From positions 11,695-75,694 of IMG/VR virus record IMGVR_UViG_3300012984_000001: a stretch of DNA of 64,000 nucleotides; one strand, given 5' to 3'. A program made the translations under genes and the position numbers. Positions within the stretch are counted from its first letter, which is position 1; every line of letters starts with the position of its first letter. Below are positions 12,148 through 58,927 of the stretch, piece by piece. The stretch comes from a virus. Under the pieces are notes generated by a model. The model ran no database searches. It saw nothing but the letters and a program-made list of their open reading frames with translations, and was not told the DNA's origin.

Positions 12148-12996
12148 TTACTTTCTGAATGAATTCCCCTTGAATTCGATTATGTTAAACATATCGAACA
12201 TTCTGTCGTAAACTCGATTGCCATACTTTTCGCCAAATTCTTCAATTGCTATATCAACATCTCCTTCAAATCCTTCTTTGAAATTACAAGTAGCATGAGT
12301 AATCAATTTTCGGCTGTAGCGTTCTTCAAATATTTCTTTGAATAAATTAACTTTTCCGTAGTTACTAGCAATCTTTTCCGTCTTAACATCATCGAAAAAT
12401 CGTTTTCCACGCCACATTCTAGCCTCAAATTCATCTCGATCAATATCGGAGTTGCATTTCTCAAACATATTCACAACTTCATTAGCCGAATAACCTTTGA
12501 AAGTAGTTGATTCTATCTCTTTGAATATATGCTCAAAAACTCGCATGGTCGAAGTTTTTCCGTTTCCGTATGTTCCAACAAGCAAAATACCTTTATCGAA
12601 GCTAGGAACGCTTATTTTTGATAAATTTTCGCATCCAAAGAATCTTTCATCTTTAGAAAAATAATAAATCAAAGGTTCTAAGTTTTTAATAGTAACATTT
12701 TCAACTTTGATAAATGGCCTTTTGTTGATGGTATGAAAATTAAGTTTAAATAAATCATACAGATGTTTTGCAGATATTTTAAACTCAACATCTTCTTTAG
12801 GCTGTTGAATCTTATCAAAATAGTCAAAATTAGCTTTAATCTGTTCTGGAGTAGCCTGAGTAGATTTAGCTTCATAAGATTCAATCTGTTGCTTTTGTTC
12901 ATCACTTAAACTTTCTGGCTTCAAACTTTTCAAATGATTATATTTATTTACCCCTATGATTGACGAATTTTGTGGTTGTATTGCTTCCTGTGCCAT
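12148..12996 (-). CDS. DnaC/IstB-like AAA+ helicase loader
   Basis: Walker A GTYGNGKT, Walker B FFDD, YGNRVYDRMFDMFNIIEFKGNSFR tail. Confidence 0.8.
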   Translation of the reverse strand: MAQEAIQPQNSSIIGVNKYNHLKSLKPESLSDEQKQQIESYEAKSTQATPEQIKANFDYFDKIQQPKEDVEFKISAKHLYDLFKLNFHTINKRPFIKVENVTIKNLEPLIYYFSKDERFFGCENLSKISVPSFDKGILLVGTYGNGKTSTMRVFEHIFKEIESTTFKGYSANEVVNMFEKCNSDIDRDEFEARMWRGKRFFDDVKTEKIASNYGKVNLFKEIFEERYSRKLITHATCNFKEGFEGDVDIAIEEFGEKYGNRVYDRMFDMFNIIEFKGNSFRK

Positions 12997-13741
12997 TTGA
13001 TTTTGCTTTATTAATATTATCTACCCATTCTAATTTGAATCCTACCCAATTCTTGTCAAGAGAAATTTTGAGTGCTTCTTCAATAGAGAACTTTCTTTTA
13101 CCGCATTCTTCTACTAACGAATCAAAAGCAGTTTTTCCTAAAGATGCATTTTTTGATATTCGGTGGTTAACAAAATCATTCACCAAAACTTTGTTTGAAA
13201 CTAATTTCAGTAATTCACTTTTATAATCAAATTCATTATCATCTTTAATTTCAATTACATCTTCATTTGCATTTTCAATTGCTAAATGCTTAAGCAAGGC
13301 TTTAAGCGAATCTTTAGCACAAACAAGATTTTTAGTTAATTCATAAACTTCTAATACAGTTTTAGATTTTAAAGAATTTCTTAAACTTATATAATCTGAA
13401 TCATCAAGAATTGCTTTTGATTTTTTCCAAAACTGCCCTACAGTGCCGTTTACAGATTGTTTTTTAGCATATTCAAGCCTTTCCAGACTAATAGTTTTTA
13501 ATTTATCATTAATCCACCCATTCTCTACTTGCTTAAATTTCGCTTCAAGGGTAGTTTTAAGGGTAGCTTCTGAAATTCCGTTACAATAAAGCAATACTCT
13601 TCTTAAATCCAAAGGAATTATATCGTTTTGATGCTGATAAATTAAAAGGTCAATGTAACAAGCTCTTTCCTCAGGCAACATAGTTCTCGTGCCTTCATAA
13701 AAATCTTTAGAATAAAATAAAAAAGCGGGGTCTTTACTCAT
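12944..13741 (-). CDS. Replication initiator (YdaU/DUF1376-like N-terminus)
   Basis: KDPAFLFYSKDF...EERACYIDLL N-terminus; WVGFKLEW C-terminal domain; precedes the loader. Confidence 0.75.
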   Translation of the reverse strand: MSKDPAFLFYSKDFYEGTRTMLPEERACYIDLLIYQHQNDIIPLDLRRVLLYCNGISEATLKTTLEAKFKQVENGWINDKLKTISLERLEYAKKQSVNGTVGQFWKKSKAILDDSDYISLRNSLKSKTVLEVYELTKNLVCAKDSLKALLKHLAIENANEDVIEIKDDNEFDYKSELLKLVSNKVLVNDFVNHRISKNASLGKTAFDSLVEECGKRKFSIEEALKISLDKNWVGFKLEWVDNINKAKSNGTGSNTTTKFVNHRGK

Positions 13742-13788: not shown

Positions 13789-14301
13789 TTAAACTGTTAA
13801 CTTTTTTCCACATGTTGCGTTTGGCTTGTCGGTTTTTGTTAAGTTTAGCCTGTTGTTGAGAGCTAATTTCACTTTTTCGCTTATTGGCAATGTTCCAGAT
13901 AATTCATTGCATTTTCGATGCATTAAAACCATATTGTCCAAAGAATTTTTTCCACCAGAAGCCAAAGCTATTAGATGCTCAATAGTTATATCTTCAAACA
14001 ATTTTAATCCACATAAGAAACAAATGTCTCCGTCTCGTTCTAGTAGTTTTCTTTTTTCTTTTCTATATGTAGTTTGTCTTAATTCTTTAATTGGTGCGCC
14101 ATCCCATTTTTCAGAAGGATTTGAAAAACAAAAAAATGCATGTCTTGTATATTGATTAGAAGTTTTTCCCGACGAATAAACTACTCCGGTCTCTTTTCCT
14201 TTAAATCTGAGTAATTCATACTCGTTTGTGACAGGAAATATTTCGCACCCTCTAGCTTCGAGCCATTTTTTAAAAGATTGTATTTTTGAAGTTGCAATCA
14301 T
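13789..14301 (-). CDS. HNH endonuclease
   Basis: RDGDICFLCG...TIEHLIALASGGKNSLDNMVLMHRKCN. Confidence 0.85.
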   Translation of the reverse strand: MIATSKIQSFKKWLEARGCEIFPVTNEYELLRFKGKETGVVYSSGKTSNQYTRHAFFCFSNPSEKWDGAPIKELRQTTYRKEKRKLLERDGDICFLCGLKLFEDITIEHLIALASGGKNSLDNMVLMHRKCNELSGTLPISEKVKLALNNRLNLTKTDKPNATCGKKLTV

Positions 14302-14322: not shown

Positions 14323-14419
14323 AAACCCTTAAAAGTTTCGAGGTGGTGGCTCTACTCCTTTTAAGGGTTTGAAAAGAATGTCGTTAAATGTAACAAATCC
14401 ACCACAGATATTACGTAAC
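14323..14419 (-). promoter_or_regulatory. Two-hairpin kissing-loop 5' leader upstream of HNH/initiator genes
   Basis: 13-bp stem 14323-14335/14358-14370. On the - transcript its loop CCACCAC is complementary to the loop GUGGUGG of the upstream hairpin (14383-14419). Confidence 0.6.
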
Positions 14420-14448
14420 AAATATACATCTAAATTATGTAATACAAA
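14419..14448 (-). promoter_or_regulatory. Bacteroidota sigma-ABfr-type promoter
   Basis: TTTG-N18-TATATTTG on the - strand (-33/-7 consensus TTTG/TAnnTTTG). Confidence 0.7.
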
Positions 14449-14464
14449 AACATAATTGTGTAAA

Positions 14465-14878
14465 TCATATTAATCTTCTTAATTCGCTTAAAATTTTGTC
14501 CTTATTTTTTTGATATAACGCATAGTTTCTTTTAGAAGGATGTATTAAAAAAGTAATGGGTTTTTCAATTTTCATAAGAGACAAATACTCCTTAGCGACA
14601 TTACCTAAAACGATAATTGATTTACAATTTTCTACTTTTTCTTTTAAAGAAAGAGTCCAATACTCTACAAACATTTCCCAACTAGGTTTTTTATGTCCTC
14701 CGTTTTTATCGAATCCTGGAAATTGGTCTGTTACAGCATCAAAAGTAAATAGTTCCTGTGCTTTTTCTTTTGAAATTCCTATTTCTGAAAACCATTCATA
14801 AAGCATTGTTGTATCGTATGGTAATTTTTGCTGTACTGCAGGAGGGGCTTGTCCTATAATTAAAATTTTAGTGTTCAT
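14465..14878 (-). CDS. Uracil-DNA glycosylase superfamily protein
   Basis: IIGQAP motif A, IVLGNVA, HPS motif B. Confidence 0.8.
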   Translation of the reverse strand: MNTKILIIGQAPPAVQQKLPYDTTMLYEWFSEIGISKEKAQELFTFDAVTDQFPGFDKNGGHKKPSWEMFVEYWTLSLKEKVENCKSIIVLGNVAKEYLSLMKIEKPITFLIHPSKRNYALYQKNKDKILSELRRLI

Positions 14879-35205: not shown

Positions 35206-35278
35206 TTCCACATAGCTCAGTCGGTAGAGCAAATGACTCATAATCATTAGGTCACAGGTTCAATCCCTGTTGTGGAAA
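35206..35278 (+). tRNA. tRNA with CAT anticodon (elongator Met or Ile2)
   Basis: Canonical cloverleaf TTCCACA/TGTGGAA, GCTC/GAGC, AATGA-CTCATAA-TCATT, ACAGG-TTCAATC-CCTGT; no initiator GGG/CCC; CCA not encoded. Confidence 0.92.
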
Positions 35279-35279
35279 C

Positions 35280-35577
35280 AATTAAGTTGTTAAGTTCTTT
35301 AATTTTTTGTTTGGACGGGAGTTCGACTCTCCCCGACTCCACGAATCGAGTCCGTGTAAAGTGTTCGATGGTTTGGCACACCGATATACAAAGTGCTATT
35401 TTTGGGGTCGCCTGGTTTTGACAGCAAAGCGAATTAGAAGAAATAGACTTAATTAAAAATAACTGCAAAAGTTATAAACCTTTTTGGAAACGAAGCAAAA
35501 CTTGCTGCGTAATCAACGAAATTTGTGATAGCGAAAATATCACTAAACAGCCGGAGGAGATTACTTCAAATCCGGTT
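35280..35577 (+). ncRNA. ssrA: Circularly permuted (two-piece) tmRNA
   Basis: Acceptor piece 35280-35341 (T arm GGGAG-TTCGACT-CTCCC, CGACTCC-A) precedes the 5' end GGGGTCG-CCTGGTTTTGAC at 35404; G3:U70 present; tag ORF 35465-35512 AKVINLFGNEAKLAA*. 3' end of the coding piece uncertain. Confidence 0.88.
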
Positions 35578-57874: not shown

Positions 57875-57903
57875 AAAAGCCCGATTTTATTCGGGCTTTT
57901 TTT
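57875..57903 (+). terminator. Rho-independent terminator after the capsid gene (likely bidirectional)
   Basis: AAAAGCCCGA-TTTTAT-TCGGGCTTTTTTT. Confidence 0.85.
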
Positions 57904-58532
57904 TATTTGATATGCCCCCATCTTTTGCCACTTATTATACGGCTTATAGTATTGGGTTTTACGTTATAAATCATTGACAATTCCTTTTGAGTTAAAGGAC
58001 TTGATTTTATTTCTCTAACTTCTTTTTCAGTAAGTTTCGATGCTACATGTGCCTCTCCTCTAGGCATTAATCCATGTTCTGCAGCATGCTGCATATTTCC
58101 TAGTCCGGTACTCCATTTTAAAGAAAAATATCGATTATCTTCTTTGTTTCCTTCCTTGCCATTTTCATAAAGCCCTATATGGTTTACTTCTGGGAGATTA
58201 TCGGGATTAGGAATAAAATTTTTAGCCACTTCTCTATGAACTTTTGCTTTATAATAATATCCTGGTCTTCTTAAACCACACAATAAATATCCATCAGGGT
58301 CTTTACTTTGTCTCATTATCCTTCCTTTCATAAAATAACTGCTAACACCATTTCCTCGCATTCTATCTAAGCTTTTTATACGTCCTAAATTATATTTGGC
58401 GTATTTTGGAACTACAACATTTGCTTCGTGGATTTTGTAGCCTTTATATTGAGTTTCTTTATACCCAGTTATGAGTATTATTTCTTCTCCTGTTTTTTCT
58501 TCTACAGCTTTTACAAGTTTATTTATATTCAT
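57903..58532 (-). CDS. NUMOD4/HNH-type homing endonuclease with C-terminal HTH
   Basis: NLGRIKSLDR, GYLLCGL, VHREVA..FIPNP..LPEVNH...NKEDN...LKWST..GNMQHA. Confidence 0.85.
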   Translation of the reverse strand: MNINKLVKAVEEKTGEEIILITGYKETQYKGYKIHEANVVVPKYAKYNLGRIKSLDRMRGNGVSSYFMKGRIMRQSKDPDGYLLCGLRRPGYYYKAKVHREVAKNFIPNPDNLPEVNHIGLYENGKEGNKEDNRYFSLKWSTGLGNMQHAAEHGLMPRGEAHVASKLTEKEVREIKSSPLTQKELSMIYNVKPNTISRIISGKRWGHIK

Positions 58533-58558
58533 ATTTCTAGTGTTTTGTATAAAAAGTA

Positions 58559-58654
58559 AATACCGTTACTGCAATCGGCTCTGACCTCGATATTAGTAAC
58601 GGTATTCGTTTTGTTTCGTTAAGCAGTACTTTAGAGGTCAGAGTAAAATACTAC
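58559..58654 (-). promoter_or_regulatory. Two-hairpin kissing-loop 5' leader upstream of the HNH gene
   Basis: Stems 58559-70/58595-606 and 58623-33/58644-54; loops CTCTGACCTC (58579-88) and GAGGTCAGAG (58634-43) are perfectly complementary. Confidence 0.65.
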
Positions 58655-58658
58655 AATG

Positions 58659-58689
58659 CAAATATAGGTATTATTTTTTAATCAGCAAG
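58659..58689 (-). promoter_or_regulatory. Bacteroidota-type promoter
   Basis: CTTG-N19-TATATTTG on the - strand. Confidence 0.65.
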
Positions 58690-58696
58690 TTTTGAC

Positions 58697-58727
58697 AAAA
58701 AAAGACTCCTTTTTAGGGAGCCTTTTT
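58697..58727 (-). terminator. Rho-independent terminator
   Basis: - strand GGCTCC-CTAAAAA-GGAGTC-T7, after the 58730 ORF. Confidence 0.7.
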
Positions 58728-58729
58728 GA

Positions 58730-58927
58730 TTAAACTAAAGAGTTTGGATTTACGTTTTTTTCGTCAAAGAAATCCTCTAACATTTTATATGCTTTTGCGG
58801 CATATTCTAAATATTCTGGTTTTTTCTTTTTACACTTTTCTTCGGCTGATTCAATTGTTTTATGAATCATTTTTAATGCAGTCAATTCTTCTAAATCAAC
58901 TGGATACTTTTCAAAGAAAGCTTTCAT
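58730..58927 (-). CDS. Small helical protein
   Basis: 65-aa ORF directly after the Gly-rich protein. Confidence 0.6.
   Translation of the reverse strand: MKAFFEKYPVDLEELTALKMIHKTIESAEEKCKKKKPEYLEYAAKAYKMLEDFFDEKNVNPNSLV

What the first reader, a model, noticed from the sequence alone, without database searches (positions are those of the whole stretch)
14323..14448. Kissing-hairpin 5' leader, copy 1 (HNH plus replication initiator operon)
Seen: TATATTTG promoter, then hairpin 1 (GUUA.GUAAUA...UGUUAC..UAAC, loop containing GUGGUGG), then a 13-bp terminator-like hairpin 2 whose apical loop is CCACCAC, then the ATG of an HNH gene ~20 nt later. G-U pairs support the - strand. The same architecture with different sequence precedes the other HNH gene (58559-58689). 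Inference: a cis-regulatory attenuator in which the loop-loop kiss modulates termination or translation. Here it gates HNH, initiator and loader expression, reminiscent of plasmid copy-control leaders.
Basis: partly seen in the sequence, partly recalled or inferred. Interest (0 to 1): 0.72.

Follow-up and report, generated by a model that had tools for sequence, protein, structure and literature searches.

The report
Kissing-hairpin leader RNA of phage replication genes
A roughly 105-base RNA at the head of the replication genes of many Flavobacteria-type phages folds into two hairpins whose loops pair with each other, and this pairing is kept through at least eleven different loop sequences, so it is a real and so far undescribed structured RNA that most likely controls whether transcription stops before the replication genes.

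Summary
Window 14448-14302 (- strand) holds a Bacteroidota-type promoter. It is followed by hairpin 1 (loop GUGGUGG) and a terminator-like hairpin 2 (apical loop CCACCAC), then a U-rich tail. The HNH start codon lies 21 nt further on.

The element itself, not its flanking genes, is conserved in Flavobacterium phages elemoE/F, Olleya phage Harreka_1 and about 50 distinct viral or metagenomic contigs. All share an invariant GGAGUAGAG-N7-CUCGAAAC core. In 49 of 49 members with an intact lower stem, N7 has its exact complement in the loop of hairpin 1. Eleven kiss alleles were found. Both stems covary, and G-U pairs occur only on this strand.

The internal loop GAGUA/GAAA fits a sarcin/ricin motif. 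The family heads replication modules; the HNH gene here is a secondary insertion. Rfam 15 has no matching family.

Copy 2 (58689-58533) is real but belongs to another sequence family, inside an inserted promoter-leader-HNH cassette. Eight more such leaders precede DNA-metabolism genes in related phages.

No alternative antiterminator pairing exists. The most likely role is a kiss-clamped, promoter-proximal terminator or attenuator. That mechanism is inferred, not shown.

The parts
14419..14448 (-). Bacteroidota-type promoter of copy 1: -33-like TTTG (14448-14445), an 18-nt spacer, and -7 box TATATTTG (14426-14419)
   Evidence: Read directly. A TAnnTTT[GA] box lies 2-6 nt before H1 in nearly all of 51 family members. 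Assignment to the Bacteroidota -33/-7 consensus rests on my own knowledge and was not tested.
14390..14414 (-). Hairpin 1: stem GUAAUA/UGUUAC with 13-nt loop UCU-GUGGUGG-AUU. Kiss strand L1 is 14405-14399.
   Evidence: All 6 stem pairs show changes on both sides across 26 homologues.
14371..14389 (-). A/U-rich single-stranded linker
   Evidence: Median length is 20 nt in the family. It pairs with either H2 arm no better than shuffled linkers do.
14323..14370 (-). Hairpin 2. It has a 13-bp lower stem (14370-14358 with 14335-14323) and a 5x4 internal loop, GAGUA (14357-14353) opposite GAAA (14339-14336). Above that are an invariant 3-bp GAG/CUC stem and the 7-nt apical loop CCACCAC (14349-14343), which is kiss strand L2.
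   Evidence: The core GGAGUAGAG-N7-CUCGAAAC is invariant. Nine of the 13 lower-stem pairs covary. The internal loop matches the sarcin/ricin base-pair rules described in PMC8450098.
14302..14322 (-). U-rich tail and short spacer before the start codon
   Evidence: In the family, 5-9 of the 10 nt after the stem are T, and the ATG follows 5-30 nt later in most members. The window's own tail (AUUCAUUUAA) is among the weaker ones.
13789..14301 (-). HNH endonuclease gene (170 aa), inserted between the leader and the initiator gene
   Evidence: Pfam HNH E 2e-07; PHROG 7785 E 1.3e-17. It is absent at this position in homologous loci.
12944..13741 (-). Replication initiator / primosomal protein (DUF1376-like)
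   Evidence: It belongs to the protein cluster found downstream of the leader in 29 of 55 loci.
12148..12996 (-). DnaC-like helicase loader
   Evidence: PHROG 3277 and PHROG 50.
58533..58689 (-). Copy 2, with the same architecture and an unrelated sequence. It has a promoter (CTTG 58689-58686; TATATTTG 58666-58659). H1 is 58654-58623, with loop CUCUGACCUC at 58643-58634. H2 is 58607-58558, with GAGGUCAGAG at 58588-58579. A U-rich tail follows.
   Evidence: E1 -7.9, E2 -19.5, 10-nt kiss. Not matched by the family-A covariance model.
57903..58532 (-). NUMOD4/HNH-type endonuclease gene downstream of copy 2. Together with the promoter and leader it forms an inserted cassette.
   Evidence: The closest relative of the upstream gene (L327) has a terminator followed by convergent genes, with no leader or HNH.

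Best explanation
Shown: the element is a member of a phage-specific family of promoter-proximal leader RNAs about 105 nt long. A host-type promoter sits 2-6 nt before hairpin 1, so transcription should start at the foot of that hairpin. The RNA forms hairpin 1, a roughly 20-nt unpaired linker and a long hairpin 2. A 7-bp Watson-Crick kiss joins the loop of hairpin 1 to the 7-nt apical loop of hairpin 2.

Inferred: the foot of hairpin 2 (a G/C-closed stem followed by a U run) acts as an intrinsic terminator. It lies 5-30 nt before the first gene of the replication module. No room is left for a second promoter, so those genes must be expressed by read-through. The top of hairpin 2 is 22 nt long. 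It would close poorly on its own, because its 3-bp GAG/CUC stem is too weak. A sarcin/ricin-type internal loop plus the kiss organise it.

Inferred, most likely: the kiss nucleates or clamps the terminator hairpin and so sets how many polymerases stop. The product would be a compact short RNA, and the polymerases that read through would transcribe HNH, initiator and loader. A still unknown trans factor that touches the kiss or the sarcin/ricin loop would switch this during infection.

Copy 2 and eight further leaders apply the same design, with other sequences, to HNH, helicase, Erf-like and nucleotide-metabolism genes.
For: Structure:
- 95.4% of cells are paired, against 82.3% in shuffles. 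19 of 29 pairs change on both sides. 0 of 500 shuffles reach the observed values. Slid controls give 33-50% paired.
- RNAalifold independently predicts H1 and H2.

Kiss:
- 49 of 49 members defined only by the H2 motif plus a lower stem carry the exact complement of N7. Among other hits to the same pattern, 2 of 90 do.
- Eleven alleles were seen.
- Predicted duplex energies are -8 to -12.6 kcal/mol.

Strand: 29 G-U cells against 1 A-C cell in the stems.

Position:
- Promoter box 2-6 nt before H1, a T-rich tail, and the ATG close behind.
- Downstream genes are initiators of several unrelated types, loaders and primase/helicases.

Distribution: phage-specific. Only 2 short MAG contigs among 185,579 species genomes carry it.

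Recurrence of the design: the descriptor gives 8 leaders outside family A in 428 kb of related contigs, against about 1.6 expected. They sit before DNA-metabolism genes.
Against: - No transcript data exist: no start site, no 3' end, no read-through measurement.
- No alternative antiterminator helix was found, so a regulated switch is assumed, not seen.
- The toolset's simple terminator scan does not call H2 a terminator, because its loop exceeds 8 nt.
- The window's own U tract is interrupted (AUUCAUUU).
- A plain terminator would be enough for constitutive attenuation, so the purpose of the kiss is unexplained.
- The kiss could form between molecules instead of within one.
- Upstream genes lie on the same strand, so H2 may also act as the terminator of the preceding operon.
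Confidence: 0.5

Rival explanations
1. It is a stand-alone, stable small RNA gene (promoter, compact RNA, terminator) that works in trans, and its position before the replication genes is secondary. One version is a dosage or immunity-like regulator, comparable to P4 CI RNA.
For: - It has its own promoter and a terminator-like 3' end.
- A 5'-terminal hairpin, a 3' hairpin and the kiss together give a nuclease-resistant fold.
- The kiss heptamer varies widely while its flanks stay invariant. Elements within one phage use different kisses, as expected if specificity matters.
- P4 controls its replication operon with complementary segments of one leader transcript (PMC4825925).
Against: - No second target for either loop exists elsewhere in the genome. 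The 10-mer of copy 2 occurs only in the pair itself.
- The link to the first gene of DNA-metabolism operons is almost perfect, and the gap to the ATG is too short for another promoter. Read-through is therefore needed in any case.
- The carriers show no sign of lysogeny. The element is almost absent from bacterial genomes.
Confidence: 0.2
2. It is a recognition platform for processive antitermination or another RNA-binding protein, comparable to lambda nut or HK022 put. The folded leader stays with the polymerase, or recruits a phage or host protein, so that downstream terminators are read through. In this reading the kiss and the sarcin/ricin loop form the binding surface.
For: - The order promoter, RNA signal, terminator, replication genes is that of lambda pR-nutR-tR1-O-P (my own knowledge).
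- The invariant sarcin/ricin-type loop is a classic protein-docking motif (PMC8450098).
- The same design heads several DNA-metabolism operons, as expected for one temporal class.
Against: - The other leader families share no sequence motif with family A. A single protein recognising them all would have to read shape only.
- No protein cluster co-occurs with the element beyond the replication genes themselves.
Confidence: 0.13
3. It is a DNA-level element: an origin of replication, a single-strand initiation site, or the recognition site of the neighbouring homing endonucleases.
For: - It lies directly before the initiator gene, where phage origins often lie.
- It contains inverted repeats.
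- Nuclease genes are repeatedly inserted just after it.
Against: - Wobble pairs are strongly strand-specific (29 G-U against 1 A-C).
- A conserved promoter and U run flank it.
- There are no iterons (direct reading).
- A sarcin/ricin loop and a loop-loop kiss have no known role in duplex DNA.
- Being used as a homing target would be an added property, not an explanation of the fold.
Confidence: 0.04

Closest known systems
Satellite phage P4 CI RNA immunity (seqA/seqB/seqC), and P1/P7 c4 RNA
   Same: Complementary segments of one untranslated leader transcript act on each other upstream of the phage's replication genes. In P4 the outcome is premature transcription termination (PMC4825925).
   Different: - P4 CI is cut out of the leader and acts as an antisense RNA on two targets in a lysogen.
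- Here the two partners are hairpin loops about 50 nt apart in a leader of about 105 nt.
- No processing signal or second target is seen.
- There is no sequence similarity, and the carriers do not look temperate.
Plasmid copy-control kissing complexes (ColE1 RNA I/RNA II; pT181 and pIP501 attenuation)
   Same: Fully paired 7-nt loops, control placed before replication functions, and in pT181/pIP501 a terminator before the rep gene (my own knowledge).
   Different: - In plasmids the kiss forms between a sense leader and a countertranscript from the opposite strand, and it selects between alternative leader folds.
- Here both loops are on the same strand and the same molecule.
- No alternative fold exists.
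Lysine riboswitch P2-P3 kissing with a loop E / S-turn in P2
   Same: A sarcin/ricin-like internal loop lies in the helix whose apical loop makes a loop-loop kiss, upstream of a terminator (my own knowledge).
   Different: - No multi-helix junction or ligand pocket.
- No Rfam match.
- The terminator is itself the kissing helix, not a separate expression platform.
phi29 pRNA
   Same: A phage RNA with two mutually complementary loops that covary between phages (my own knowledge).
   Different: - pRNA loops pair between molecules to build a ring on the packaging motor.
- pRNA is not a leader of replication genes, and its fold is different.
Rfam RF04312 trpB motif (best Rfam score)
   Same: A hairpin followed by a terminator-like hairpin and a U run.
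   Different: The score is 23.7 bits against a gathering score of 59. The alignment places the model's first helix on the promoter, and many of its pairs are non-standard. It is not a member.

Membership tests
Any Rfam 15 family | Score at or above the family's gathering threshold | tested here: not met
   The whole window at gathering threshold gives only a tRNA and a permuted tmRNA elsewhere. E-value scans of both leaders give only sub-threshold chance hits.
Family A leader (defined here): GGAGUAGAG-N7-CUCGAAAC in H2 plus H1 carrying the complement of N7 | Copy 1 matches the covariance model and has the kiss | tested here: met
   116.4 bits, E 2.4e-21. The kiss is GUGGUGG/CCACCAC.
Family A leader (defined here) | Copy 2 matches the covariance model | tested here: not met
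   No hit at E <= 10. It lacks the GGAGUAGAG/CUCGAAAC core. It shares the architecture only.
Intrinsic (Rho-independent) terminator | G/C-closed hairpin followed directly by a U-rich tract | tested here: inconclusive
   The lower stem is 10-14 bp with C-G pairs near its foot, and 5-9 T follow in the next 10 nt across the family. The hairpin top is 22 nt, so the simple scan does not call it. The window's own tail is interrupted.
Intrinsic (Rho-independent) terminator | RNA 3' ends at the U tract | not testable with these tools
   No RNA run holds this phage.
Classical attenuator / riboswitch expression platform | A conserved antiterminator helix mutually exclusive with the terminator | tested here: not met
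   The linker, taken together with the 3' part of the H1 loop and the H1 3' arm, pairs with either H2 arm no better than shuffled versions do (mean z +0.40 and +0.34 over 49 members).
Leader-peptide attenuator | A short ORF in the leader | tested here: not met
   No ATG lies between the promoter and H2 in copy 1, and no conserved ATG appears in alignment A3.
Sarcin/ricin (bulged-G, loop E) motif | A 5x4 internal loop with an A-G trans Hoogsteen/sugar-edge pair next to a Watson-Crick pair, a U-A trans Watson-Crick/Hoogsteen pair with a bulged G, an A-A or A-C trans Hoogsteen/Hoogsteen pair, and a variable trans sugar-edge/Hoogsteen pair | tested here: inconclusive
   The sequence fits: GAGUA opposite GAAA gives A-G, U-A plus bulged G, A-A and G-A, all combinations listed as allowed in PMC8450098. 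The loop is invariant in the family, except that the bulged G is a U in the elemo subgroup. No 3D or probing data exist.
P4 CI-type immunity RNA | A processed stable RNA with two complementary targets in the same operon leader, acting in a lysogen | tested here: not met
   There is only one complementary pair, with no further copy in the genome. The element is essentially absent from bacterial genomes. Processing is not testable here.
Antisense (countertranscript) copy control | A promoter on the opposite strand giving an RNA complementary to the leader | not tested
   Both kiss partners lie on the same strand. An opposite-strand promoter was not looked for systematically. Strand-specific G-U pairs argue that the folded RNA is the sense strand.

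The most novel reading that the evidence does not exclude
The leader may be a self-addressed dosage sensor. Its two loops are complementary, so terminated leaders could kiss nascent leaders in trans, either before the nascent RNA has made its own partner loop or at that loop once it is made. This would couple termination before the initiator gene to the concentration of leader RNA, and therefore to phage genome copy number or time after infection. The many orthogonal kiss heptamers would then act as specificity codes. These include different ones for different operons of one phage and eleven alleles within one family. They would keep operons, and co-infecting phages, from cross-talking. This would be a sense-strand equivalent of plasmid incompatibility groups, built into a terminator.
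Probability: 0.12. Interest if true: 0.9.

Novelty: new variant of a known kind. Interest (0 to 1): 0.72.

Why it matters
- It adds a well-supported structured RNA family that is absent from Rfam 15. It is conserved across different genera of Flavobacteriia-type phages, where the neighbouring proteins are not conserved at the DNA level.
- It is a rare natural case of a loop-loop kiss proven by many independent compensatory changes.
- The design, a 5' hairpin kissing the apex of a promoter-proximal terminator, recurs with unrelated sequences before replication, helicase, recombinase, nucleotide-metabolism and homing-endonuclease genes. This points to a general and unstudied way of timing or dosing DNA-metabolism genes in phages of Bacteroidota, a group whose transcription control is poorly known.
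- Two cultured carriers, elemoE/F and Harreka_1, make it directly testable.
- The orthogonal kisses could serve as parts for synthetic RNA control in Bacteroidota.
- The repeated insertion of nuclease genes just behind the leader is a lead for homing-endonuclease biology.

Tried and rejected
- Rfam at gathering and E-value thresholds gave no family. The trpB hit is an artefact of a terminator-like shape.
- Homologues of copy 2 were sought three ways. The flank pattern AATATCG-N10-CGATTGC gave 117 chance hits, none with a kiss. The HNH2 protein has no relative in IMG/VR.
- Sequencing runs: no RNA holder is listed, only one soil-metagenome DNA run that may be the source.
- A first loose descriptor gave about 100 hits per strand and was discarded.
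- The energy-based descriptor is useless on GC-rich contigs, where it gave 1339 hits in 2 Mb. Controls were therefore restricted to low-GC loci and Markov-randomised sequence.
- An antiterminator search was negative.
- A leader peptide is rejected because the leader has no ATG.
- A hammerhead or other ribozyme core was considered because of the GAAAC. It is rejected because CUGANGA is absent.
- A K-turn was considered and rejected, because there is no 3-nt bulge followed by tandem G-A.
- An SD/anti-SD reading of GGAGG/CCUCC was rejected, because most kiss alleles are not SD-like.
- Earlier scan notes: none overlap this element.
- Literature searches found no description of this RNA. A catalogue of about 8,500 unnamed IMG/VR candidate RNAs (PMC10690425) may contain it, but its supplements are not held.
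- The whole Harreka_1 genome holds only the one family-A element.

Full report
**Setting.** The window is 64 kb of a complete 75.7-kb virus record with direct terminal repeats. It has about 32% G+C. It was recovered from a soil metagenome. The region of the finding lies in a leftward operon. That operon runs uracil-DNA glycosylase (14465-14878), HNH endonuclease (13789-14301), DUF1376-like initiator (12944-13741) and DnaC-like loader (12148-12996).

**Observation, copy 1.**
- TTTG lies at 14448-14445 and TATATTTG at 14426-14419.
- Hairpin 1 is GUAAUA/UGUUAC with loop UCU-GUGGUGG-AUU.
- A 19-nt linker follows.
- Hairpin 2 has a 13-bp lower stem and an internal loop GAGUA/GAAA. Above these are a 3-bp GAG/CUC stem and the 7-nt loop CCACCAC.
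- A U-rich tail follows, and the HNH ATG is 21 nt after the stem.

**Observation, copy 2.** Copy 2 has an 11-bp hairpin 1 whose whole 10-nt loop, CUCUGACCUC, is complementary to GAGGUCAGAG in the top of a 13-bp hairpin 2. Single-sequence folding predicts both hairpins of copy 2 and hairpin 2 of copy 1.

**Chance control.** A descriptor of my own required a Watson-Crick heptamer pair 20-100 nt apart, each inside a hairpin loop, with E1 <= -1 and E2 <= -12 kcal/mol.
- It finds exactly these two sites in the genome.
- In 200 Markov-randomised genomes it finds 0.075 sites per genome.
- None of those random sites is as stable, and none has a kiss longer than 7 nt.

**The element is conserved on its own.** BLASTN of the region against GenBank phages matched unannotated intergenic DNA at 75-77% identity. 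Apart from an unrelated hit to the uracil-DNA glycosylase gene in Cellulophaga phages, these matches fell on the leader and not on the flanking genes. The carriers are Flavobacterium phages vB_FspP_elemoE/F and Olleya phage Harreka_1. In both, the element stands before a small ORF, a 'replication protein' and, in elemo, a primase/helicase. Neither has an HNH gene there. The first alignment already showed a compensatory change: GUGGAGG with CCUCCAC in elemo.

**Family and covariation.** I scanned IMG/VR, metagenomes and one genome per prokaryotic species with the H2 core, leaving the apical loop free (GGANTAGAG-N7-CTCGAAAC).
- This gave 51 distinct full-length members.
- Membership can be defined without using the kiss, as the motif plus a contiguous lower stem of at least 8 bp. 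On that definition, 49 of 49 members carry the exact reverse complement of N7 upstream.
- Among the other 94 pattern hits only 4 do. Two of those four are true members with one stem mismatch.
- Eleven kiss alleles were seen: CCACCAC, CCUCCAC, CCACCAU, CCGCCAC, CCGUAAC, CCGGAAU, CUGCACA, CCGUGAA, GCCCAAA, CCACACA and CCGCAAC. In each case the complement sits in the loop of a hairpin.
- On a 26-sequence alignment, 95.4% of cells are paired, against 82.3% in shuffles and 33-50% in slid controls. 19 of 29 pairs change on both sides. No shuffle out of 500 reaches the observed values.
- The few unpaired kiss cells come from a one-column misalignment of L068.
- RNAalifold predicts the same two hairpins independently.
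- G-U cells outnumber A-C cells 29 to 1. The fold therefore belongs to the strand of the downstream genes, that is, to an RNA.

**Anatomy of the family.**
- A TAnnTTT[GA] box lies 2-6 nt before hairpin 1.
- Hairpin 1 has 6-8 bp. Its loop is 13 nt (UCU-kiss-AUU; 39 of 51) or just the 7 kiss nucleotides.
- The linker has a median of 20 nt.
- The lower stem of hairpin 2 has 10-14 bp.
- 5-9 of the next 10 nt are T.
- The ATG follows 5-30 nt later in most members.

**The internal loop.** The invariant 5x4 internal loop GAGUA/GAAA fits the sarcin/ricin (bulged-G) motif pair by pair: A-G, U-A with a bulged G, A-A and G-A. All of these combinations are described as allowed in PMC8450098. This is a sequence fit, not a structure determination. 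A second, unrelated leader (L073:5178-5091) carries the same loop in flipped orientation.

**Genomic association.**
- Proteins after the leader are replication initiators of several unrelated PHROG families, DnaD- and DnaC-like loaders, and primase/helicases.
- One homologous initiator cluster follows the leader directly in 15 loci, and after one inserted gene in 13.
- The inserted genes include HNH, endonuclease VII-like and Ant-like genes. The window's HNH is one of these secondary insertions.
- The family is essentially absent from bacterial genomes. Only two short MAG contigs among 185,579 species carry it.

**Copy 2 and the wider class.**
- The covariance model built from family A scores members at 50-125 bits. 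It does not detect copy 2.
- The closest relative of the gene upstream of copy 2 has a terminator followed by convergent genes. In the window, promoter, leader 2 and HNH 2 therefore form an inserted cassette.
- Running the descriptor over 428 kb of related contigs gave 60-61 hits, of which 8 are not family A. About 1.6 hits are expected from randomised sequence. Two raw hits occur in 246 kb of unrelated low-GC loci.
- By eye, all eight have a TAnnTTTG-like promoter box directly upstream, a U-rich tail and an ATG 5-20 nt later. A strict pattern for box and tail passes four of them.
- They precede three DNA helicases, an Erf-like annealing protein, an HNH endonuclease, a nucleoside deoxyribosyltransferase and two proteins of unknown function.
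- Two of them share hairpin 1 and the kiss GUAAGGC but precede different genes. This suggests that the leaders are portable modules.

**Mechanism.** What is shown is the fold, the kiss, the strand, the position and the gene association. What follows is inferred.
- The foot of hairpin 2 with its U run looks like an intrinsic terminator. There is no space for another promoter before the ATG. Expression of the module therefore requires read-through.
- There is no leader peptide.
- There is no conserved antiterminator. The linker pairs with the terminator arms slightly less well than shuffled linkers do. This excludes a classical attenuator or riboswitch platform.
- The top of hairpin 2 is 22 nt closed only by three base pairs. 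The kiss (-8 to -12.6 kcal/mol) and the sarcin/ricin loop are the obvious means of closing it.
- I therefore favour a kiss-clamped terminator. Its efficiency is set by the tertiary contact, and possibly switched by an unknown factor acting on that contact.

**Rivals.**
- A trans-acting or multimerising small RNA.
- A nut/put-like platform for antitermination proteins.
- A DNA-level origin or homing site. This one is disfavoured by the strand-specific wobble pairs and the flanking transcription signals.

**Comparison with known systems.**
- Rfam 15 has no matching family.
- The nearest functional analogue is P4 CI RNA, where complementary parts of one leader cause premature termination before the replication genes (PMC4825925).
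- Plasmid kissing complexes and the kissing P2 helix of the lysine riboswitch with its loop E share single features only.
- None shares the defining combination found here: both partners on one short sense leader, with the kissing helix itself acting as the terminator.
- A 2023 catalogue of unnamed IMG/VR candidate RNAs (PMC10690425) could include it, but this could not be checked.

**Verdict.** This is a real and apparently undescribed RNA family, one example of a recurrent design, with its mechanism still open.

Noticed in passing
window 35206-35278 and 35293-35512 (+): Rfam calls a tRNA (73.6 bits) followed directly by a permuted, two-piece tmRNA (RF04321, 63.7 bits; gathering score 47). 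A tmRNA is therefore encoded by this phage.
   Followed up: partly
window 13789-14301; also L011, L105, L137, L055, L069 just after their leaders: The short gap between the leader and the initiator gene is a repeated insertion point for HNH, endonuclease VII-like and Ant-like genes. These are possibly homing endonucleases that use the very conserved leader DNA, or the start of the initiator gene, as their target.
   Followed up: partly
L022:3296-3370(+), L030:3373-3458(+), L031:7598-7513(-), L064:5073-5167(+), L066:4693-4778(+), L068:4742-4655(-), L073:5178-5091(-), L189:704-624(-): Eight further promoter-proximal kissing-hairpin leaders with sequences unrelated to family A. They lie in phage contigs that also carry a family-A leader. 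They precede helicase, Erf-like, HNH, nucleoside deoxyribosyltransferase and unknown genes.
   Followed up: partly
L022:3296-3370 and L030:3373-3458: These two leaders share hairpin 1 and the kiss GUAAGGC/GCCUUAC, but they have different hairpin 2 stems and precede different genes (helicase and Erf-like). This suggests that leader modules are exchanged between operons.
   Followed up: no
L073:5178-5091 (-): This unrelated leader has the internal loop GAAA (5' strand) opposite GAGUA (3' strand). That is the same sarcin/ricin-type loop as in family A, in flipped orientation.
   Followed up: no
L107 and L170 (Bacteroidales MAG and metagenome contig): The H2 core GGAUUAGAG-AAAAAGA-CUCGAAAC with a lower stem occurs in gut or rumen Bacteroidales DNA. 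Only a 6-nt shifted complement lies upstream. This may be a distant relative outside the Flavobacteriia phages.
   Followed up: no
window 14408-14396 (loop of hairpin 1): RNAalifold extends hairpin 1 by UCU pairing with GGA inside the 13-nt loop. This would occupy two kiss nucleotides and could be a closed state competing with the kiss. These bases are invariant, so there is no covariation evidence either way.
   Followed up: no
window 58700-58730 (-): A plain intrinsic terminator (GGCUCCCUAAAAAGGAGUC followed by a U run) ends the upstream gene just before the promoter of copy 2. The inserted cassette therefore sits between two convergent transcription units.
   Followed up: partly
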